Below the pieces are notes generated by a model. That model worked only from the letters and a program-made list of their open reading frames with translations, had not been told where the DNA came from and made no database searches. A DNA stretch of 62,837 bases, filler included, from Rhabdomonas costata (Eukaryota): assembly GCA_019059605.1 (NCBI GenBank). It is 49 parts of 49 records of this genome, joined end to end, with 100 filler letters (N's around TTAATTAATTAA, not from the genome) between each part and the next. Parts side by side here need not be neighbours in the genome. Positions count along the whole stretch, not along the records: positions 14,135 to 15,319 come from JAHMHO010024551.1; 48 more parts are not named here. The stretch is one strand, 5' to 3'. Shown here piece after piece: positions 5,145-51,627 of the stretch. Position 1 is the first letter of the stretch. Every line of letters starts with the position of its first letter. A program made the position numbers and the translations under genes.

Positions 5145-5247
5145 TTTGGTCCAAAAATCACAAAGAACACAGCAAACCGCTGTAAATTAGGGCCTTTGTC
5201 CATAATTTACAGCGGTTTGCTGTGTTCTTTGTGATTTTTGGACCAAA
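5145..5247. repeat. Terminal fold-back inverted repeat, 45-bp arms
   Basis: 5145-5189 is the reverse complement of 5203-5247 and abuts the contig start. Confidence 0.9.
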
Positions 5248-8667: not shown

Positions 8668-8705
8668 GTGTGCACCCAACTGAAACCCTATTCGCACCGA
8701 GTGGC

Positions 8706-8891
8706 TGTTGTGAAAACCATCTCGAAGGGAAAGCTGTGTCTCAACTCACTGTGCCAGTGGAGAACCCTGTGACCTTCCGCAGATTCCATCAGATTGATCT
8801 GATAGAACCGAGCTTGCGGGAGTGTAAATGGGTTCTCCACTGGCACAGTGAGTTGAGACACAGCTTTCCCTTCGAGATGGTTTTCACAACA
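8706..8891. repeat. Terminal fold-back inverted repeat, 62-bp arms
   Basis: 8706-8767 is the reverse complement of 8830-8891 and ends at the contig end. Confidence 0.9.
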
Positions 8892-9012
8892 ACCCNNNNN
8901 NNNNNNNNNNNNNNNNNNNNNNNNNNNNNNNNNNNNNNNTTAATTAATTAANNNNNNNNNNNNNNNNNNNNNNNNNNNNNNNNNNNNNNNNNNNNTTGTT
9001 GTGGGTCTCCAG

Positions 9013-14029: not shown

Positions 14030-14339
14030 CCACCNNNNNNNNNNNNNNNNNNNNNNNNNNNNNNNNNNNNNNNNNNNNTTAATTAATTAANNNNNNNNNN
14101 NNNNNNNNNNNNNNNNNNNNNNNNNNNNNNNNNNGTGGTGGTGTAAGCCCAACCTCTGCTGCAAGGTGACACGAGTATGTTACCGATGCCTGAGGCCTGG
14201 AGATGCAAGAGGGGAGTGTGAAGGGAGAGTGGAGGGGTGTCGAATTCCCACCGCTAACCCAGCACATGAACCAACCAACATGATGCACTGAAGAAGTGGT
14301 GATGTTGGAAGCATTCTGAGACCGAAAGCGTAGGGGTAT

Positions 14340-15120
14340 GAGTTCAGCGATTCAGTCGTCCCGTTCACACTCGGCTTTCAGCCTCCTGTTCATGTTCCTC
14401 CAACCATCATGTCGTTCACATTCGCTCCACTTCGTTACCCTCATGTTCTCTCCTGTTCCTATTCGTTCTGTTGATCACGGTTCACATTCACACTCGTCGC
14501 TGCGCTCCTGTTCATGTTCTCTATGTCGTCACATTCGCTACGCTCATGTTCCTCCTATGTAAGAGAGGGAGGTCCGAACGTGAGTGACGGCCGACATGAT
14601 AGTGATGAAGGGCTACGGCTACGCCTACGCTCCTGTTAATTGGTCGCTTCGTCATTCGCTACGCTAGTTCCTCGCTCCTCCTTTCACGTCTTCAGTCGCT
14701 ACGCTCCTTCCTCCTCTATGCTTTCTGTCGATCACGTGTCGTCGTGATGCTCGGTACCTCGCATCCCTCCTCCTACCATGGTTCACTCCCCGGCATAAGC
14801 CGGTACGTTCACAGGGTCACACTCGTCACATTCACTGCCTTCATGTTCCTCCTGTTCCTTGTATACGTTCTGTTGATTATGTTGAAGGAGATCCCGAAGG
14901 ACTTCCGCAGAATCCGAACCCGAAGACCGAAAGCGAAGACAGAAAGCGAAGACAGAACCCCAACAGCCGAACTCCGAACCCCCAAAGGCCCCCACGAACG
15001 TAGTGAGTGGGGGACCTTATCATAGTACTGTGAATGCACGTAACCACCCTTACGGTGGTGGAGTGCATGAACCATCACATTTAGGGAGTATGCGAGCGCA
15101 TGCGAGTATACGACCGGCAT
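14340..15120. repeat. Array of strand-specific G.A-ladder DNA hairpins (non-coding element, copy 1)
   Basis: Minus strand 14551-14529 GA-ACAT-GA-GC-GTA-GC-GA-ATGT-GA and similar units at 14482-14519 and 14650-14710; plus strand 14989-15013 CCCCCAC-GA-AC-GTA-GT-GA-GTGGGGG and 15088-15111. Shares blocks with 25702-26464. Confidence 0.8.
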
Positions 15121-15706
15121 GCAACTCGGGGCATTCGTGGGGTATCAGACATCATGGGCCCCTCGGTCACCTCTTCATCATCTTCCACCATCATGAGAGT
15201 ACGTAGGGGTGGTCACGCAGTGGGCACCCCGGAGTAGCATCAGGACCACCCAGAGTAGAGGGCATCGCAGATAGAGGTATCCGTAGGAGGGGCATGATGT
15301 CTGATACCCCACACCCACCNNNNNNNNNNNNNNNNNNNNNNNNNNNNNNNNNNNNNNNNNNNNTTAATTAATTAANNNNNNNNNNNNNNNNNNNNNNNNN
15401 NNNNNNNNNNNNNNNNNNNGGGTTGGTTTCCTTTTCTTAGATGGCTTTCGCACCAAAAAGGTGGATAAAGAGATCACGAACCGGAAGATGATCACTCGGA
15501 AAAGGGCAGAGACCAGGAATTTTGAATCGAATTACAAGTCCGTTAAGAGTCCAAGCTCAAAAGAGCCAGTGATGCGAACAGAACAATGAGCGCACTACCA
15601 TCGTTTCCATTACCGGGATACAGGGAAATCGTTGGTGACAGGACTGTGGAAATAGTTTGGAAAGGAATGGCAGACGAGGTCTTTTTGTGTGTTCGGCCAT
15701 TGTCAG

Positions 15707-15957
15707 GCTCCGAGGAGGAGATCATGTGCTTCGCCAAGGATAACTACGCCGTGGACTTCCCGCTGATGTCCAAGGTGAACGTCAACACCCCCTCGGAGTG
15801 CCCCATGTTCACCTTTCTGAAGGGTGGGCCAGCGGGCACACCGATCCGGTGGAACTTCACGAAGTTCCTGGTTAGCCGCCAGGGCGCCGTGGCGCGGAGG
15901 TTTGAGTCCCGTACCACCCCCGAGGAGATCGCTCCGGAGGTGGAGAAGCTCCTCTAG
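15707..15957 (+). CDS. GPX: Glutathione peroxidase family, last exon
   Basis: ttgtcag acceptor; GSEEEIMCFAKDNYAVDFPLMSKVNVN...PMFTFLK...IRWNFTKFLVSRQGAVARRF...EVEKLL*; WNFxKFL signature. Confidence 0.93.
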
Positions 15958-16598: not shown

Positions 16599-16710
16599 CA
16601 AACANNNNNNNNNNNNNNNNNNNNNNNNNNNNNNNNNNNNNNNNNNNNTTAATTAATTAANNNNNNNNNNNNNNNNNNNNNNNNNNNNNNNNNNNNNNNN
16701 NNNNGGTTTT

Positions 16711-16811
16711 GGGTAGCGAATTCACTGTGGCGCACTTCGACAGCTTCCCAAAGTAAGTCAGAGACCTCCTGAAGGAAGCTGTCGAAGTGCGCCACAGTGA
16801 ATTCGCTACCC
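16711..16811. repeat. Terminal fold-back inverted repeat, 38-bp arms
   Basis: 16711-16748 is the reverse complement of 16774-16811 at the contig start. Confidence 0.9.
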
Positions 16812-18039
16812 ACTACGCCGCGCAGCTCCCCACTCGCCGACCTCACCGGTGCCACCACAGGAAGGGCCAGCACAGCGCTGGTGGTTCCGGTACTCGCGCT
16901 CGAGGTGCCCCCCGAGCGAAGCAACGAGGCGTACACGGGGGCGAAGGTCACGGGTACGGCCGTCGTCGCCCCAGCTTGATACCACAGCTGTGACGGAATG
17001 TGAATGTGTCCCGAAACCGTTCTTTGACAGGTAATCCACTCTATGTCACTCTGTGACTGTCAGAACTGCTACACATTCTAGGGCACACATTCTAGGGCTG
17101 AGAGTCGCCTGATGTATGGGGTTGAAGCCGTACGGCGTGCGTCAGAAAACATGTCATCCCATGCCATCTTCAAAAAGACTGTCCTTCACACCTAACTACG
17201 CCTTCGCAATTTCCACCTGAAAGTGTAAAGGACCGGAGATTTAATCCAAAAAAGTATCCCCGCGCTCATTTTCAAACCGTATTTTTCCTCCCAGCCCGAA
17301 GAAGTCCATTACTTCGCTAATATCCACGTTCCTACGTGCACTACAACTCTGAGATCAGAGGCATAACAACAGGTCAAAAAGACTATCGCTCGGAATGTTA
17401 TACTATTCTCTCCAATCAAGTTAACAACTTGTTTGCAACGCAGTGCCAAGTGTTTCGGTGCAACACTTGCTATAACAAGGAGATACAGGTGGTGCAATGA
17501 CGTTATCACACCAATGTGCTCGTTATTTCTACTACGAGAAGAAAGCGAATGTGCAGTGCTGTCACGGCATCTGAGCAATGGCCTCCTGCCTGAATCACCA
17601 CTTCCATCCCCCACCTTTCCCCACTCTTCGTGTTCGTCCCAAAGCGAGGCACTGAGCAGGGGGCAGAGATACTTCCATTGCGTGGTGTGATGATCTGGCT
17701 GTTCTTGGGGAGGCAGGATCCAAAGCGACCCAAAAAACATTACCCCACGTTGTTCAAGAAACCGTTTTTGCCGTGTCCGAACAAACCCCGACCACATCTG
17801 CAGCATCAGGCCAAAGGGAGCCGCCTCTGGATCCAGAGAAGCAGCACCAGCCCAAACCTAAAAGTTGCAACCGGAGTGAACAACCCCCCNNNNNNNNNNN
17901 NNNNNNNNNNNNNNNNNNNNNNNNNNNNNNNNNTTAATTAATTAANNNNNNNNNNNNNNNNNNNNNNNNNNNNNNNNNNNNNNNNNNNNGGTGTGTGTGA
18001 GCTTATAATGGGGTTCGCGGCCCAATACCTTGTTCATCG

Positions 18040-19172: not shown

Positions 19173-19373
19173 NNNNNNNNNNNNNNNNNNNNNNNNNNNN
19201 NNNNNNNNNNNNNNNNTTAATTAATTAANNNNNNNNNNNNNNNNNNNNNNNNNNNNNNNNNNNNNNNNNNNNGTTGTTGTTGAACCTTCGCATGCCTTGC
19301 ACTTGAGTGGATGAAAGGTCACTTTTGTGTTGTGAATGGTAAACGGTCCCTGCTGCATCCGAAAACAGCGTAC

Positions 19374-19910
19374 CATTGCCACAGCAATTCCGCGCTGCGC
19401 CACACGATTGCCACACCCCTGTGCGGAGCAGGAGCAGCCCTGCCCACACTCCACCACAGGCAGGGCGCACGCAGAGCCACTGCCTGGAAGCACCCTCCCC
19501 TCACCGTCGTACCCGCCGGCCCCTCCTGCAAGGCCAACACAGTGGCACAGACCCATTCCACGGCAGCAGCGGGGACCCCATGGGGGGCAATCACAGCCAA
19601 ACGGCTCCGCGGCCGGCGCATCCAAAGGAAGGCTAGCGGTGTACCGAAAGGCAGGCCAGCCTGGGCCCTCGTAAAGGGAGCGCGCCACCCAGACTTTGCC
19701 TTCCAGAGGGTAAATGTCGTCTATAGAGGTGGGGCTGGGAATATTGTCCCCTTTATTGCCATCACTGTCCGTGGCAAAAAGCTCGCCATCATGCATATGG
19801 TGAAAGAAATCAGAGGATAAGGATGATAACGTTGAAACAGATTCGGTGGCTGACCACCAACCGGGTCCTGCGCCGGAGGCCGAGAACTCCCCAACTCTGG
19901 CAGTGCACAC
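19374..19910 (-). CDS. Pre-SET domain histone-lysine methyltransferase (SUV39/SETMAR-like), partial
   Basis: PAFRYT...GCDC...CC...CHC...YDGEGRV...VVECGQGCSCSAQGCGNRVAQRG, then a GTACGC donor at 19373. The 5' boundary is uncertain (possible acceptor at 19721). Confidence 0.85.
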
Positions 19911-20197
19911 ATATTTTCAATAAAACGCCACTCGCAGCAAAAGGAAACGAAACCATGGAATAAGTCATGTAAACACGGCAACTGAAGTAGCAGTTCCCCC
20001 AGACACTTCCTCAACAGAGTTCCCCCAAAAAGAATCTCACGTCAACATCGCAACTGTCCTCCCAATGTTTCATGTGCAGCAGGTTCTTTCACGCTGCGTC
20101 CCGGTTCGTGAATTCTTCAGCGAACGGGCGAAGGCAACACCAGCGGCCCGCATTCATTCAACAGTTCCTCCAACGCGGCCCTCATTCGGCCACGCCC

Positions 20198-25056: not shown

Positions 25057-25701
25057 GACACAGTCTCATGTGTGTGTGTGGAGGAGTGTATAATTTCCTG
25101 GTATGTGTGAGTATTACTGTATAGTTTCCGTGTATGTGAAAGCAGTGCAATGTGGTTTTCTCCGCACAGTAGTGCGTGCCTTTGTCGGTGATCTGTTTCT
25201 ATCCATCACTATCTCTGATCTCCTTTCTTTTCCTATCCTTTGCTGACTACTGTGCACAACCCCAAAAACATTGTTTCTCCAGTGCAGGTTCCTTTTTTGC
25301 AAATTGCCTGTTGAGGTGGCTGTGTGCTTTGTCTACGCAAAAAGGCAGTCTTGCTAAAGTGTTCCTTCACACTCATGTCACATGCCCAGTGCCCGTCCCG
25401 TGATATACTGAGGCAGACATACGTGGAGCGGAACAACAGCACAACATTGTATTCAGAAAACTCCATATTTCACCACTTTTGTCTTCCCCATGAAAATGGA
25501 TTGCGCCACGGCAGATTAGGCGCTCACACCTAAGAAAAAGACAAAGTAACTTGTTCGACAAGTTCAGCAAGTTCAGAACCTCCTGCTCCACAACCACNNN
25601 NNNNNNNNNNNNNNNNNNNNNNNNNNNNNNNNNNNNNNNNNTTAATTAATTAANNNNNNNNNNNNNNNNNNNNNNNNNNNNNNNNNNNNNNNNNNNNCCT
25701 T

Positions 25702-26265
25702 AGGGCCCCCACGAAACGCAGTGAGTGGGGATTGGAGGCATGAACGTAGTGAATGCCGACAGGATACAGGAACGAGGGAGCGCAGCGACCGAGTGACAAG
25801 CAACATCTTCTGTATCTGTGAGGGAGCGTAGCCGCACCGCGGTGGAGCGACCGAACCACTGCATTTAGGAGGAGATGCTGACCGTAGGGAGGCATCGACG
25901 ACATCAACATCTTTTACCCCTAGAGGCTCATCCCGTCGCTCCCCACCATTTAAGGTGGTTCGCTCCTCTCCTCTTCACTCTTCTTCTTTCTTCACTCCCA
26001 GGGCCCCCACGAAACGCAGTGAGTGGGGATTGGAGGCATGAACGTAGTGAATGCCGACAGGATACAGGAACGAGGGAGCGCAGCGACCGAGTGACAAGCA
26101 ACATCTTCTGTATCTGTGAGGGAGCGTAGCCGCACCGCGGTGGAGCGACCGAACCACTGCATTTAGGAGGAGATGCTGACCGTAGGGAGGCATCGACGAC
26201 ATCAACATCTTTTACCCCTAGAGGCTCATCCCGTCGCTCCCCACCATTAGGTGGTACGCTCCTCT
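25702..26265. repeat. Tandem direct repeat, period 298 nt, made of G.A-ladder hairpins (non-coding element, copy 2; hairpins continue to 26464)
   Basis: 25702-~25968 is nearly identical to 26000-~26265. Hairpins at 25737-25757, 25770-25796, 25874-25896, 26381-26419 and 26435-26456. Confidence 0.9.
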
Positions 26266-26987
26266 TCACAACCCCCTCAACTCATGCCTTTACTATACCT
26301 GTCTCTTCGCATCCTTACACCGTCATAAGACGCTTACAGGATGCTCCGACCGGGCGAGGCCGGAGGGAATACCATGAGAGGAGTGAACGAGTGGACCGGG
26401 TACCGGGGAACGAGTGAACCATCATTCTTAGGGAGTGAGAGACGCAAGGATCTCACGACCGGCAAGAACACAAAATACACCCTTACACCCCTAGAATACA
26501 AGAAGGCCCTCAGAATGCATTAAGGTGGAAGGAACGAAGGCATGGTGCTTGTCGACATGCCGTAGTAGAGAGTGTCTGCGAGGCGAGGATGGTTGGGAGT
26601 CGGAGGAATGCCTCAGGGTACGTGGAAGGTCTCAAGGCATCACGTCAAGGCCTCACATCACCCTCTCACCTTCAGACGTAAAACCCTCACGTGACCTCAG
26701 AAATCCAGACCCTCGAACCCCAGACCTCCACAGAAACGAAGAACCCTCTGACACCCTGAGAACACAAAGCGTAGTACAGTCATGCATCGAGCCACTCACA
26801 ACACTCACACCCTCCAACTTCTGACCCTCACACCCAAAAACGTGACCCTGACCCTCCAACTCCACACACCCCTCCTGACACCCNNNNNNNNNNNNNNNNN
26901 NNNNNNNNNNNNNNNNNNNNNNNNNNNTTAATTAATTAANNNNNNNNNNNNNNNNNNNNNNNNNNNNNNNNNNNNNNNNNNNNGTGT

Positions 26988-29128: not shown

Positions 29129-29620
29129 CTACGCCGAACCACAATCAGAATCAGAAAAAGAATCAATGGGTTCGGCGGTGGGCGGGTAGCGACGCCTCGT
29201 TGCCAGGTCCACAAGCAGGTCTGCAGGAATCTCAAATCCCAGCCCTTTTGGTCTTCTCGGCATTGCCCAACCCGCCCGGAATCTGCTCCAAAGGTCACCA
29301 TAGCATGCATGCAACCGAAAGTCGGAAACTGGAAACGCAACACAACCCTAAACCCCATGTTCCAGCCTTCATTGCCAAAAAAAAAATAGCCAGCAGGGAG
29401 TTGGCAGCCCCACACACATACTCTACTACTACACAACCAAACACACCCACCACNNNNNNNNNNNNNNNNNNNNNNNNNNNNNNNNNNNNNNNNNNNNTTA
29501 ATTAATTAANNNNNNNNNNNNNNNNNNNNNNNNNNNNNNNNNNNNNNNNNNNNGGTTTTTGGTGTTCCGCAAAAGCGATCGATTCCTGCCGTGGGTTTTT
29601 TGAGCTTATGTCAAATTCAG

Positions 29621-30838: not shown

Positions 30839-31237
30839 GGAAGGAGGAGCGCAGCCTCGAGGGACACACCGATTCCGTCAACGCGGTAGCCGTGACTCCG
30901 GACTGGAAGCACATTGTCAGCGGCAGTCGCGACAAGACCATCAAGGTGTGGAACCTGGATACTGGATGTGAAACGTGTTGCCAGGAGGATCTCGCCGATA
31001 TTCTGTCGGGTGCCCAGCGTTTTGCCTCGGCTGGCGTCAGCACTGGGTTCCCTTTCGTTAGTTCCCTTTTTATGAGTGTCGGGTACCATTACCACGTTAG
31101 TGATGTTCAGTATATGCTTCTTTCTGATGGTGCCGACGCCCCTCCAGTTTTTCGCAGAGCCAAATGGTCCCCCCACAGCTGCCGTCAACAGCGACGATGC
31201 TGAAGCCGATCCTGGAGACGACAAGCTCGACGACTAG
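30839..31237 (+). CDS. WD40-repeat protein, last two exons
   Basis: [38 protein letters not shown]; exons to 31009 and 31158-31237 ending in TAG. Confidence 0.88.
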
Positions 31238-36846: not shown

Positions 36847-37586
36847 GAAAATACGCCACCGTATGCCCTGCACTATTGCCGTTTTCACACCGTGTATTAT
36901 TGACGCCTCTGAGAGGTGAGACGCCGACCAGCACCTGGAAACGGCGCTACCACCGGAGATTTATCGTTTGCTAGTGGTTGCACTTCTGCCGCAATCCCTA
37001 TGGTCTTTCTGACAATTCATGCATTGAACTGAGAACTGAGAACCTCGCACGAGGCACGACGCAATCCCTTTCGCTTGCTTGTCTTCCACAGATCTATCTG
37101 AACTGGAGACTGGCGATGCTGAAATTGGTCGCTACCCCGCCCCCCTTCCCAACCACCCNNNNNNNNNNNNNNNNNNNNNNNNNNNNNNNNNNNNNNNNNN
37201 NNTTAATTAATTAANNNNNNNNNNNNNNNNNNNNNNNNNNNNNNNNNNNNNNNNNNNNGTGTGGGGGGATAAACTCATTGTGATGAGCGGAGCAAATCAT
37301 AGAAGAGAGGAAGGAAAAAACCCGTCAACTTGAAATTGGCCGGCATGTCCAGGGTTGTAGAAATACCCCCGCCTGCATTTTTCCTTCCTCTCTTCTATGA
37401 TTTGCTCCGCTCATCACAATGAGTTTATCCCACTGTCTCACAACCTTTATGGTTCCCATACATATACACAAGGGGTGAGCTGGTACCTCACTTCACTGTG
37501 GGTACACTTCGGTACCTGCCCTAAGGACCCGCTGGCAGGCTGGCAGTCTATTATAGTTGCTAATAACCAGTCAGGCAACAGCCGGT

Positions 37587-51405: not shown

Positions 51406-51627
51406 GGTTGTGAACGAGTCTTACCAGATGGAACAGGTTTCAGACTCTTCTTTCTGTCTGGTGCTGTTCTATTCCTTTGGGCACGAGTCTATTGCCGCCT
51501 TGCTGCGTTGTGACATAAAGAAGCAAGAAAAGCCATGGCAATAGACTCGTGCCCAAAGGAATTGAACAGCACGAGACAGAGAGAGGAGTTTGAAACCTGT
51601 TCCATCTGGTAAGACTCGTTCACAACC
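51406..51627. repeat. Diverged inverted duplication (91-bp arms) of a glycosidase exon end + intron start
   Basis: 51406-51496 versus reverse complement of 51537-51627: 5 substitutions, all in the intronic part. Confidence 0.9.

What the first reader, a model, noticed from the sequence alone, without database searches (positions are those of the whole stretch)
14340..15120. Non-coding contig built from strand-specific G.A-ladder DNA hairpins, with a polarity switch
Seen: unlike the exon/intron contigs, this one is filled with quasi-palindromes in which 1-4 bp Watson-Crick stems alternate with GA/GA steps and close on GNA-type loops. Examples: minus strand GA-G-GA-ACAT-GA-GC-GTA-GC-GA-ATGT-GA-C-GA (about 14554-14526) and GA-ACAT-GA-ACA..GA-GC-GCA-GC-GA..TGT-GA-ATGT-GA (14519-14482). 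From ~14350-14860 the GA form is on the minus strand. After a short GAAGAC(C/A)GAAAGC repeat (14920-14957) it is on the plus strand (CCCCCAC-GA-AC-GTA-GT-GA-GTGGGGG; GTATGC-GA-GC-GCAT-GC-GA-GTATAC). Established: tandem sheared G.A pairs and C-GNA-G triloops strongly stabilise single-stranded DNA hairpins on only one strand, since the complement gives T/C mismatches. Inference: this DNA is selected to fold when single-stranded, as an origin/priming region of an organellar minichromosome, plasmid or ssDNA-phase element. The polarity switch would fit a bidirectional origin.
Basis: partly seen in the sequence, partly recalled or inferred. Interest (0 to 1): 0.78.

Follow-up and report, generated by a model that had tools for sequence, protein, structure and literature searches.

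The report
G·A-ladder hairpin repeat DNA
A gene-free stretch of DNA is built from short hairpin modules that can fold on only one strand through G·A pairs; the same design occurs in a cycad mitochondrial repeat and in many microbial repeats, but where it sits in this organism and what it does are still unknown.

Summary
The finding lies in one contig (14135-15319) of a chain of 49 contigs of about 1.18 kb. The contig is non-coding. It holds 13 hairpins (467 of 1185 nt) in which Watson-Crick runs are interrupted by 5'-GA/5'-GA steps, often capped by C-GNA-G triloops.

- **Specificity:** the other ten mismatch dinucleotides give 0-3 steps each, and no shuffle reaches the observed count. The steps favour a Y-GA-R context.
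- **Polarity:** the GA form is on the minus strand in 14316-14860 and on the plus strand on both sides of that block.
- **Second contig:** 25698-26883 uses the same grammar. The two contigs share a two-hairpin module of about 90 nt, in four distinct copies and both orientations. Its stems differ but stay complementary, while the linkers, the GA steps and a G-N-A/G-G-A internal loop are kept. That points to selection on a one-strand fold.
- **Energy models:** standard nearest-neighbour models do not see the fold.
- **Relatives by design:** the same 11-nt core occurs in the cycad mitochondrial Bpu element and in many prokaryote and phage hairpin repeats.

Best reading: a family of strand-specific mini-hairpin repeat modules that act in single-stranded DNA. 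The "bidirectional origin of an organellar minichromosome" is not supported, because polarity switches several times and the modules are repeated. Compartment, copy number and topology could not be tested.

The parts
14135..15319 (.). Contig A, the whole non-coding contig that holds the finding. GC is 53.8%.
   Evidence: No Rfam match even at E<=1, no tRNA. ORFs only as expected from repeats. No plasmid or phage match.
14135..14144 (+). G/T-only decamer at the contig start. The matching C/A-only run is at 15309-15319. Probably remnants of a whole-genome-amplification primer, not part of the element.
   Evidence: most of the 49 contigs start with a G/T-only run and end with a C/A-only run.
14316..14860 (-). 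Block in which the G·A form lies on the minus strand. The plus strand is 22-38% purine here.
14825..14849 (-). Ladder hairpin with 6 Watson-Crick pairs and 2 GA steps. It is 87% identical over 31 nt to the copy at 14526-14556.
   Evidence: (family D1).
14781..14812 (-). Class II hairpin: outer GA step, a G-N-A/G-G-A 3x3 loop, and an apical 5-bp stem with a 4-nt loop. It is the first half of a module copy.
14733..14780 (-). Linker plus class I hairpin, the second half of the same module copy.
   Evidence: 14 pairs, 3 GA steps, 3 irregularities. (76% identity to 25903-25866)..
14694..14708 (-). Minimal hairpin: the 11-nt core with a C-GTA-G loop flanked by GA steps.
14609..14634 (-). Hairpin with a GNA/GNA loop, overlapping a 6-nt repeat of 3.2 copies.
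14525..14555 (-).
   Evidence: Homologous to 25731-25795 in contig B, with compensatory stem changes.
14482..14519 (-). The inner hairpin 14496-14508 is confirmed (3 pairs, 1 GA step, C-GCA-G loop). The outer arms need a 3-nt bulge.
   Evidence: plus reading.
14568..14601 (+). Decayed, plus-oriented copy of a class I hairpin inside the minus block.
   Evidence: 79% identity to 25734-25766. Purine island.
14921..14957 (+). 13-nt tandem repeat, 2.8 copies, beside the polarity switch. A further copy lies at 14319-14333.
   Evidence: (family D4).
14985..15018 (+). Class I hairpin: long G+C stem, GA step, C-GTA-G loop. The same hairpin sits in different flanks at 25704-25730 and 26002-26028.
15030..15072 (+). 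Class II hairpin (14 pairs, 1 GA step, 1 G-N-A/G-G-A loop, no irregularity). It is the first half of a module copy.
15078..15121 (+). Conserved linker plus class I hairpin (2 GA steps), the second half of the module copy.
   Evidence: (75% over 52 nt to 26415-26464, with a different outer stem).
15200..15303 (+). Two further plus-strand ladder hairpins, 15200-15236 and 15268-15303.
15137..15312 (.). Perfect 20-nt inverted repeat (15137-15156 / 15293-15312) that reaches almost to the contig end. It may be natural or an amplification fold-back.
   Evidence: (I1). Similar near-terminal fold-backs occur in 12 other contigs.
25698..26883 (.). Contig B, the only other contig of the 49 with the same grammar. 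My finder lists 11 plus-strand and 5 minus-strand ladder hairpins. A 298-nt unit is repeated 1.9 times at 25702-26265. Module copies lie at 25818-25908 (duplicated at 26116-26206) and 26384-26464. Minus-strand class II hairpins lie at 25935-25966 and 26233-26262.

Best explanation
Contig A, like contig B, is non-coding repeat DNA assembled from a family of short hairpin modules. The modules are written so that only the purine-rich strand folds.

Anatomy:
- Watson-Crick runs of 1-7 bp are bridged by tandem 5'-GA/5'-GA steps, expected to be sheared G·A pairs.
- Some hairpins also carry a G-N-A/G-G-A 3x3 loop.
- Many hairpins are capped by C-GNA-G DNA mini-hairpin loops.
- The recurring unit is a module of about 90 nt: a class II hairpin, a conserved single-stranded linker and a class I hairpin.

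How I think it works:
- Modules have been duplicated in tandem (a 298-nt unit in B), dispersed, and placed in either orientation. That produces the mosaic of strand polarity.
- After duplication the stems changed but stayed complementary, so the fold itself is what is kept.
- I infer that the fold forms while the DNA is single-stranded. That could be during replication or repair, in a transposition-like intermediate, or permanently if the molecule is single-stranded.
- I infer further that it serves the persistence or copying of the element, as a site that resists nucleases and single-strand-binding protein and is recognised by a protein.

Shown: the grammar, its non-randomness, its strand restriction, the covariation and the repeat organisation. 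Inferred: that the acting form is DNA and not RNA, that the G·A pairs are sheared, and the element's purpose. The cell compartment is not known.
For: **Non-randomness and specificity of GA steps**
- 5 hairpins for GA against 0-1 for each other dinucleotide.
- 0 of 200 shuffles reach the observed counts.
- in A, 9 steps for GA and 11 for TC (the GA form read from the other strand), against 0-3 for each of the ten other mismatch dinucleotides. Observed total 20, against a shuffle mean of 4.4 and maximum of 10 in 60 shuffles. In B with the duplicate removed, 21 against a mean of 2.1 and maximum of 8.
- among mismatch-blind 2x2 loops, 9 of 25 in A and 12 of 16 in B are GA/GA or TC/TC, against shuffle means of 0.59 and 0.45.

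**Chemistry-like preferences**
- Y-GA-R 30, R-GA-R 16, Y-GA-Y 16 and R-GA-Y 4 among 66 half-steps.
- C-GTA-G or C-GCA-G closes 8 of 24 hairpins.

**Structure kept through sequence change**
- A 14558-14491 (minus) aligns to B 25731-25795 (76% over 71 nt), with two pairs changed on both sides.
- A 6-bp helix in A 15030-15072 is replaced in B 25818-25856 by 2 bp + GA step + 2 bp of the same length.
- The outer stem of A 15088-15111 differs entirely from its homologue B 26435-26456, between conserved flanks.
- Four module copies align with 14 invariant columns, lying outside the variable apical stems.

**A motif private to the two contigs**
- The class II motif followed by a GA step occurs 7 times, all in A or B, and always with G-G-A on the 3' side. 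Of the 12 matches in the whole window, the 5 outside A and B lack the GA step.

**Repeat behaviour**
- The 298-nt unit is repeated 1.9 times at 98%.
- The same hairpin occurs in different flanks.
- Decayed copies exist (14568-14601).
- Both orientations are used.

**DNA and not RNA**
- Mini-hairpin GCGNAGC melts at about 70-76 C as DNA. r(GCGAAAGC) melts at 39 C. The DNA form resists nucleases and binds single-strand-binding protein poorly (PMC13037366, passages).
- There is no Rfam match at E<=1.

**Precedents with the same 11-nt core**
- The Cycas mitochondrial Bpu element, about 500 copies (PMC8297867, passages).
- In prokaryote and phage loci, 92 of 439 cores are directly flanked by a complementary stem of at least 4 bp, and clean multi-step ladders occur, for example L046 7806-7950.
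Against: - Standard thermodynamic models give no support. For 14340-14880 the z-scores are +1.86 (minus strand, DNA), +0.53 (plus strand, DNA), -0.01 (minus strand, RNA) and +1.44 (plus strand, RNA).
- For 8 single hairpins the GA strand is only 0 to 1.8 kcal/mol better than its complement, because the model leaves the GA steps open. The strand asymmetry therefore rests on published chemistry and not on a computation made here.
- Only two contigs of one assembly were available. The four module copies are few and related, so covariation counts are small.
- No relative was found outside the window, so conservation across species is not shown. Scans: metagenome 0 hits, then 15 chance-like hits; viral 0 hits; translated ORF search 0 hits; no extended similarity to the 157 fetched loci.
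- No enzyme that would act on such hairpins was seen. Among 121 ORFs of at least 110 aa, Pfam found only WD40, Pre-SET, 2-Hacid_dh_C and GSHPx.
- The assembly comes from amplified DNA, so copy number and the ends of molecules cannot be read.
- An RNA-level role is not excluded. Tandem G·A pairs are also stable in RNA (my recall; I consulted no paper on this).
Confidence: 0.45

Rival explanations
1. The contig is the origin or priming region of a small organellar minichromosome, plasmid or replicon with a single-stranded phase. The hairpins are priming or initiation signals on the displaced strand, and the polarity switch marks a bidirectional origin.
For: - Mini-hairpins of this type sit at the primase sites of the single-stranded phages G4, St-1 and alpha3, and in ssiA (PMC13037366, passages).
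- The contig has no genes.
- Its GC content (53.8%) is close to the 54-60% reported for gene-bearing plastid hairpin chromosomes of Boodlea. Those are single-stranded, mostly non-coding, and carry conserved non-coding motifs (bioRxiv 10.1101/145037, passages).
- The linkers are conserved while the stems vary, as expected for protein-recognised sites.
Against: - Polarity switches several times in A and in B.
- The module is present in at least 4 distinct copies, in both orientations and partly in tandem, which does not fit a single origin.
- The contig has no long terminal or molecule-spanning inverted repeat. The longest is 20-28 nt.
- Neither contig carries an organellar gene, tRNA or rRNA.
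- 2 of 49 same-length contigs are of this kind, which suggests a large and diverse sequence class. The sample is small.
- Circularity and depth could not be tested.
Confidence: 0.15
2. The hairpins act in RNA. The purine-rich strand is transcribed, and the stem-loops are processing, stability or protein-binding signals, as proposed for palindromic repeats in organelle transcripts, or they are parts of an unknown structured RNA.
For: - Tandem G·A pairs and G·U pairs are common in RNA (my recall).
- G·T pairs occur in several stems on the purine-rich strand.
- Stems covary between conserved linkers, as in RNA genes.
- Organelle palindromes have been linked to transcript processing (PMC4524435, passages).
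Against: - No Rfam family matches, even at E<=1.
- The RNA energy model gives z-scores of -0.01 and +1.44.
- The dominant caps are GNA triloops closed by C-G. These are the DNA mini-hairpin, whose RNA counterpart is much less stable. GNRA or UNCG tetraloops do not dominate.
- Modules lie in both orientations within a few hundred bases.
- No transcription data could be consulted.
Confidence: 0.15
3. The two contigs are not from the eukaryote. They are intergenic hairpin-repeat arrays of a bacterium, archaeon or phage that was co-amplified with the sample.
For: - The assembly derives from amplified low-input DNA.
- The same core, and even multi-step ladders, occur in many prokaryote and phage loci.
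Against: - There is no similarity beyond the short core to any of the 157 fetched loci, nor to plasmid or phage records.
- 1.18 kb without any gene, twice over, is unusual for prokaryotes.
- The class II motif with its G-N-A/G-G-A loop was looked for only in the window, not in the loci.
- GC content is like that of the neighbouring eukaryotic contigs.
Confidence: 0.1
4. Nuclear satellite or spacer DNA, for example centromeric repeats or rDNA intergenic sub-repeats, whose purine-rich strand forms G·A fold-backs, as reported for some centromeric satellites.
For: - B holds a 298-nt unit repeated 1.9 times.
- 2 of 49 contigs belong to the class.
- G·A-paired fold-backs are known for human satellite III (PMC11014236, search listing only) and, from my recall, for the Drosophila dodeca-satellite.
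Against: - A has no long tandem array, only arrays of 2-3 copies of 6-18 nt units.
- The hairpins are diverse modules, not a short monotonous unit.
- Location cannot be tested here.
Confidence: 0.12
5. An artefact of whole-genome amplification or of assembly.
For: Primer-like contig ends, and fold-back ends in 13 of 49 contigs including A.
Against: - Template switching makes perfect Watson-Crick inverted repeats, not palindromes whose mismatches are nearly always 5'-GA/5'-GA.
- Two independent contigs share diverged homologous modules with compensatory changes.
- The same core exists in unrelated finished genomes.
Confidence: 0.03

Closest known systems
DNA mini-hairpins d(GCGNAGC), including those at priming sites of single-stranded phages (G4, St-1, alpha3), in ssiA and in phage N4 promoters
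   Same: - The same cap: a C-G closing pair and a G-N-A triloop with a G·A pair.
- It is a property of one strand only and of single-stranded DNA.
- 8 of 24 ladder hairpins here end this way.
- Source: PMC13037366, passages.
   Different: - The known cases are single sites in small replicons.
- Here the cap sits on extended ladders with up to 3 tandem GA steps and a G-N-A/G-G-A loop.
- The hairpins are repeated many times, in both orientations.
- In the passages I searched, the review has no occurrence of words starting 'transpos' or 'mitochond'.
Bpu elements of Cycas and Ginkgo mitochondrial DNA
   Same: - The identical 11-nt core (GA step, G-C stem, GTA loop, GA step), flanked by a complementary outer stem.
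- A short interspersed repeat in non-coding organellar DNA, with about 500 copies in Cycas (PMC8297867, passages).
   Different: - Bpu is a nearly invariant 36-bp unit with AAGG terminal repeats.
- The window has only one match to the central 17 nt, with 2 mismatches.
- Here the outer stems all differ, ladders have several steps, and the unit is a two-hairpin module of about 90 nt.
- The passages I read do not describe Bpu as a G·A hairpin.
Unnamed hairpin repeats of prokaryotes and phages found here (for example a Pyrinomonadaceae MAG, Victivallis vadensis, a Myxococcota MAG, haloarchaea and IMG/VR contigs)
   Same: - The design is a variable stem of 4-11 bp, a GA step, two pairs, a GNA loop, a GA step and the complementary stem.
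- 92 of 439 cores have such a stem.
- Some have two GA steps and form short tandem arrays.
- None matches an Rfam family.
   Different: - There is no sequence similarity beyond the core.
- They are mostly single hairpins dispersed among genes.
- I did not look for the class II motif or the 90-nt module in these loci.
- Their function is also unknown. My crude check found no orientation bias relative to genes (12 against 9) and few T-runs (7 of 52).
Hairpin-forming dispersed repeats of organelle genomes (Volvox and Haematococcus palindromes, the Lobosphaera LIMP, sponge RHE)
   Same: - Short palindromic repeats that bloat non-coding organellar DNA, occur in both orientations, can be GC-rich (Haematococcus about 50% GC), and sometimes show complementary stem changes.
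- Sources: PMC7235400, first part of the text and passages; PMC4524435, passages; PMC5864939, whole text; PMC2670323 and PMC2800124, search listing only.
   Different: - Those are described as Watson-Crick palindromes, and their mismatches are read as decay (PMC7235400).
- None of the texts I saw reports G·A steps or GNA caps.
- I had no sequences of these genomes to compare.
Plastid hairpin chromosomes and low-molecular-weight single-stranded DNA of Cladophorales (Boodlea)
   Same: - GC-rich (54-60%), 1-7 kb, single-stranded and mostly non-coding, with conserved non-coding motifs of 20-35 bp in a fixed orientation and many small inverted repeats (bioRxiv 10.1101/145037, passages).
- This is the one known system in which a fold limited to one strand would be in permanent use.
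   Different: - Contigs A and B have no long inverted repeat and no plastid gene.
- The motif logos are in a figure and in supplements that I could not see.
- The organism of the window is unknown.

Membership tests
DNA mini-hairpin motif (C-GNA-G triloop, GCGNAGC type) | The sequence N-C-G-N-A-G-N' with N and N' complementary | tested here: met
   11 sites in A and 12 in B, against 0-7 in each of the other 47 contigs. With flanking GA on both sides: 4 in A, 6 in B, and 1 each in 3 other contigs; 8 of 24 ladder hairpins close with C-GTA-G or C-GCA-G.
DNA mini-hairpin motif (C-GNA-G triloop, GCGNAGC type) | Exceptional thermal stability and nuclease resistance of the DNA strand | not testable with these tools
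   The nearest-neighbour model leaves these loops and the GA steps unpaired. The review itself says conventional models do not account for the stability.
Bpu-like elements (Cycas/Ginkgo mitochondria) | The 36-bp consensus unit | tested here: not met
   the central 17 nt of the consensus has 1 match in the window, with 2 mismatches, at 14532-14548 on the minus strand. Only the 11-nt core is shared.
Bpu-like elements (Cycas/Ginkgo mitochondria) | Terminal AAGG direct repeats and a mitochondrial location | not tested
   I did not examine the flanks for AAGG. Location cannot be known without the genome.
Cladophorales plastid hairpin chromosomes | A long near-perfect inverted repeat that spans or ends the molecule | tested here: not met
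   The longest inverted repeat in A is 20 nt perfect (28 nt at 93%), and B has none. The contigs may be fragments.
Cladophorales plastid hairpin chromosomes | GC content of 54-60% | tested here: inconclusive
   A is 53.8% and B 55.5%, but the other contigs of the window range from 44 to 59%.
Cladophorales plastid hairpin chromosomes | Plastid genes or the six conserved non-coding motifs, and a single-stranded state | not testable with these tools
   No genes are present. The motif logos are only in a figure and supplement that I did not see. Strandedness needs wet-lab work.
Single-strand initiation / priming origin | A defined site, one or few per replicon, recognised by a primase | tested here: inconclusive
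   The mini-hairpins are present, but the module occurs in at least 4 distinct copies, in both orientations and partly in tandem. Recognition cannot be tested.
Any Rfam RNA family | A match to a covariance model | tested here: not met
   0 matches at gathering score for the whole window. 0 matches at E<=1 for A and for B.
Short-unit satellite with G·A fold-back | Long tandem arrays of a short unit | tested here: not met
   A has only arrays of 2.0-3.2 copies of 6-18 nt units. B has a 298-nt unit repeated 1.9 times.
Known plasmid or phage (contaminant) | Nucleotide similarity to a deposited record | tested here: not met
   Distant-mode blastn of A against 72,556 plasmid records and 50,697 phage records gave no match.

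The most novel reading that the evidence does not exclude
The G·A ladder may be a general, so far unnamed design for cis-elements that work in single-stranded DNA. It would be shared by repeats in bacteria, archaea, phages and plant mitochondria. In this eukaryote sample it would be elaborated into a conserved two-hairpin module of about 90 nt with its own G-N-A/G-G-A junction. Such a module could belong to a DNA species that spends much or all of its life single-stranded, such as a hairpin-chromosome-like or plasmid-like organellar DNA outside the Cladophorales. There it would serve as the replication or recognition unit.
Probability: 0.2. Interest if true: 0.85.

Novelty: new variant of a known kind. 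Interest (0 to 1): 0.6.

Why it matters
Hairpin repeats in organelle and microbial genomes are usually scored as Watson-Crick palindromes, and their mismatches are read as decay. Here the mismatches are the design. They are tandem G·A steps and GNA caps that only one strand can form, and they are kept through compensatory change.

If these elements fold as predicted, three things follow:
- They mark DNA that is regularly single-stranded.
- They give a sequence signature for finding such DNA in any assembly.
- They link the long-known test-tube stability of mini-hairpins to a widespread natural use. The Cycas Bpu element and many prokaryote and phage repeats carry the same core.

Standard folding programs miss the structure entirely, so similar elements are probably overlooked elsewhere.

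Tried and rejected

**Identity of the organism**
- A dinoflagellate spliced-leader motif gave 0 matches with up to 3 mismatches.
- Pfam on 20 long ORFs, and then on 121 ORFs, found only nuclear-type domains.
- The protein atlas placed a Pre-SET exon as generically eukaryotic.
- A protein search with a glutathione-peroxidase exon gave best hits of 52% identity and no useful names.

**Relatives of the element**
- Metagenome pattern 1 gave 0 hits.
- Metagenome pattern 2 gave 15 hits. None is enriched in ladder hairpins, so I treat them as chance.
- The viral scan with pattern 2 gave 0 hits.
- A translated ORF from the repeat gave 0 hits.
- blastn of A and B against all 157 fetched loci gave 0 hits.
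- Plasmid and phage collections gave no match.

**Energy-based tests**
- Tests of excess or unequal folding showed no signal. I attribute this to the model.

**Other points**
- My recollection that the Haematococcus plastome paper reports a purine skew was not borne out. The word 'skew' has 0 occurrences in PMC6205361.
- Ladder density in haloarchaeal loci first looked equal to that of A. It proved to be mostly noise from acidic coding sequence; only the last 200 nt of L046 hold clean ladders.
The Boodlea motif data and the Bpu copy table could bear on the comparison.
- The published Boodlea paper is not held, so I used the preprint.
Full report
**What the window is.** The window is not one locus. 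It is a chain of 49 contigs of 1183-1186 nt separated by N spacers. Most contigs begin with a G/T-only run of about ten bases and end with a C/A-only run, and some ends contain a longer C/A motif. I read these as leftovers of degenerate primers from whole-genome amplification; that reading is from my recall of such kits. Thirteen of the 49 contigs, contig A included, carry fold-back or near-terminal inverted repeats, which fits amplification chimeras. The other contigs look like eukaryotic nuclear DNA. Among 121 ORFs of at least 110 aa, Pfam finds WD40 (2), Pre-SET, 2-Hacid_dh_C and GSHPx (1 each) and nothing organellar, viral or transposase-like. No genome, reads or earlier notes were available, and I could not name the organism.

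The finding's contig A is 14135-15319.
- A purpose-written finder allowed Watson-Crick stems, one kind of tandem XY/XY step and loops of 3-7 nt. It gave 5 hairpins with GA steps on the minus strand, 2 of them with at least 2 steps. Each of the other eleven mismatch dinucleotides gave 0-1.
- None of 200 dinucleotide-preserving shuffles reached the observed numbers.
- An extended finder added G·T pairs, G-N-A/G-N-A loops and single bulges. It lists 13 ladder hairpins with 22 steps, covering 467 of 1185 nt: 7 on the minus strand between 14316 and 14849, and 6 on the plus strand between 14882 and 15303.
- A finder that accepts any 2x2 mismatch found 25 such loops in A, of which 9 are GA/GA or TC/TC, against 0.59 of 27.7 in shuffles. 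In contig B, after removing the second copy of its 298-nt duplication, the figures are 12 of 16 against 0.45 of 19.5.
- The steps prefer a pyrimidine before the G and a purine after the A: 30 Y-GA-R against 4 R-GA-Y among 66 half-steps. 8 of 24 hairpins close with C-GTA-G or C-GCA-G.
The second is confirmed only for its inner hairpin. The plus-strand examples and the 13-nt repeat at 14921-14957 are present.

**Polarity.** The purine map shows more than one switch. On the plus strand:
- 14175-14335 is purine-rich;
- 14335-14860 is pyrimidine-rich, with a purine island at about 14535-14615 that holds a decayed plus-oriented hairpin copy;
- 14895-15130 is purine-rich again;
- there is a dip at 15135-15175.

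**A second contig and a conserved module.** Only one other contig of the 49, B (25698-26883), shows the same grammar. It carries 11 plus-strand and 5 minus-strand ladder hairpins and a 298-nt unit repeated 1.9 times at 98%.

A and B share diverged homologous blocks:
- In the block A 14558-14491 (minus) against B 25731-25795, two stem pairs are changed on both sides.
- In the block A 15028-15125 against B 25816-25908, a 6-bp helix of A is replaced in B by two pairs, a GA step and two pairs, keeping the length.
- In the block A 15068-15119 against B 26415-26464, the flanks are conserved while the outer stem is entirely different yet still complementary.

Put together, a module of about 90 nt recurs in four distinct copies:
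- A plus, 15030-15121;
- A minus, 14812-14733;
- B, 25818-25908, with its duplicate at 26116-26206;
- B, 26384-26464.

The module consists of three parts:
- a class II hairpin, made of an outer GA step, a G-N-A/G-G-A 3x3 loop and a variable apical stem-loop;
- a conserved linker;
- a class I hairpin, made of a variable stem, a GA step and a short capped stem.

The class II motif followed by a GA step occurs 7 times in the window, all in A or B, and always with G-G-A on the 3' side. The 5 other matches in the window lack the GA step. This is the pattern expected when a fold is the thing being kept. The sample is small, though, with four related copies from one assembly.

**What the energy models say.**
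- Standard nearest-neighbour folding gives no excess stability for 14340-14880 on either strand, with DNA or RNA parameters. The z-scores are +1.86, +0.53, -0.01 and +1.44.
- For eight single hairpins the purine-rich strand is only 0-1.8 kcal/mol better than its complement, because the GA steps and GNA caps are left open.
- The claim that only one strand folds well therefore rests on published chemistry. The mini-hairpin review reports melting at about 70-76 C for GCGNAGC DNA and 39 C for an RNA counterpart. It also reports nuclease resistance and poor binding of single-strand-binding protein, and states that conventional models do not explain the stability (PMC13037366, passages).
- The stability of tandem sheared G·A pairs, and their preference for the Y-GA-R context, are my recall.

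**Relatives and precedents.**
- No sequence relative of A or B was found.
- The short core is widespread.
- In those loci, 92 of 439 cores are directly flanked by complementary stems of at least 4 bp. Several genomes carry many copies with different outer stems. A haloarchaeal locus has clean two-step ladders in tandem.
- None of these loci matches Rfam, apart from two tRNA genes.
- A text search for the core led to the Bpu element of Cycas and Ginkgo mitochondria. It is a 36-bp interspersed repeat with about 500 copies. Its printed consensus holds the identical 11-nt core inside an 8-bp stem (PMC8297867, passages).
- The window has the core but not the Bpu unit.
- My searches and the passages read found no description of natural repeat families built on G·A ladders. 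That is a statement about those searches only.

**Interpretation.** The functional inference, an origin of an organellar minichromosome with a bidirectional switch, is not.
- Polarity changes several times in both contigs.
- The module is repeated in both orientations and partly in tandem.
- There is no long inverted repeat and no organellar gene.
- Compartment, depth and topology cannot be tested here.
- Two of 49 same-length contigs belong to the class, which suggests a sizeable and diverse sequence class. The sample is small.

I commit to this reading: a family of strand-specific mini-hairpin repeat modules that fold when the DNA is single-stranded and are copied or retained because of that fold (confidence 0.45). 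The rivals are:
- a priming or origin element of a small replicon with a single-stranded phase, including something like the Cladophorales hairpin chromosomes (bioRxiv 10.1101/145037, passages) (0.15);
- an RNA-level role (0.15);
- nuclear satellite or spacer DNA (0.12);
- prokaryotic contaminant DNA (0.10);
- an artefact (0.03).

The compartment question cuts across these readings.

**Limits.**
- The Boodlea motif logos, the Bpu copy table, and the Haematococcus and Stephanosphaera repeat figures were not visible.

Noticed in passing
all contigs of the window, e.g. 1-10, 1176-1185, 14135-14144, 15309-15319, 29434-29453: Most of the 49 contigs start with a G/T-only run of about 10 nt and end with a C/A-only run, and some ends contain a longer shared C/A motif. 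This looks like untrimmed degenerate primers from whole-genome amplification, so each contig may be one amplicon and contig ends say nothing about the ends of real molecules.
   Followed up: partly
e.g. 5145-5247, 8703-8894, 16710-16812, 37266-37431, 51406-51627: Twelve contigs besides A have a fold-back palindrome or a near-terminal inverted repeat at one end, at 73-94% identity. These are probably amplification chimeras.
   Followed up: no
L044, L072, L074, L086, L103 (one Pyrinomonadaceae MAG); L040, L041, L113, L115 (Victivallis vadensis); L060; L119; L116; L046 7806-8000; L025: Many prokaryote and phage genomes carry dispersed or tandem hairpins of the form variable stem, GA step, two pairs, GNA loop, GA step, complementary stem. 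Several copies occur per genome, and none matches an Rfam family. In a crude check I saw no clear orientation bias relative to genes and few T-runs.
   Followed up: partly
literature: PMC8297867, Bpu consensus: The 36-bp Bpu element of Cycas and Ginkgo mitochondria folds, on one strand, into the same G·A-ladder mini-hairpin: an 8-bp stem with one G·T pair, a GA step, a G-C stem and a GTA loop. The passages I read describe it only by its terminal repeats and a restriction site.
   Followed up: partly
26620-26883: The 3' part of contig B is C/A-rich with few clean hairpins and resembles strings of the primer-like C/A runs. It may be partly amplification-derived.
   Followed up: no
15081-15087 and 26428-26434 (module linkers): The conserved linker of the module contains a heptamer or hexamer like the plant-type telomere unit (TTTAGGG / TTAGGG). 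This may be coincidence.
   Followed up: no
15547-15954 (+), 19273-19916 (-), 30841-31200 (+): Neighbouring contigs carry exons of a glutathione peroxidase, a Pre-SET domain protein and a WD40 protein. The best database identity for the peroxidase exon was 52%, so the source organism seems poorly represented in the protein collection.
   Followed up: partly
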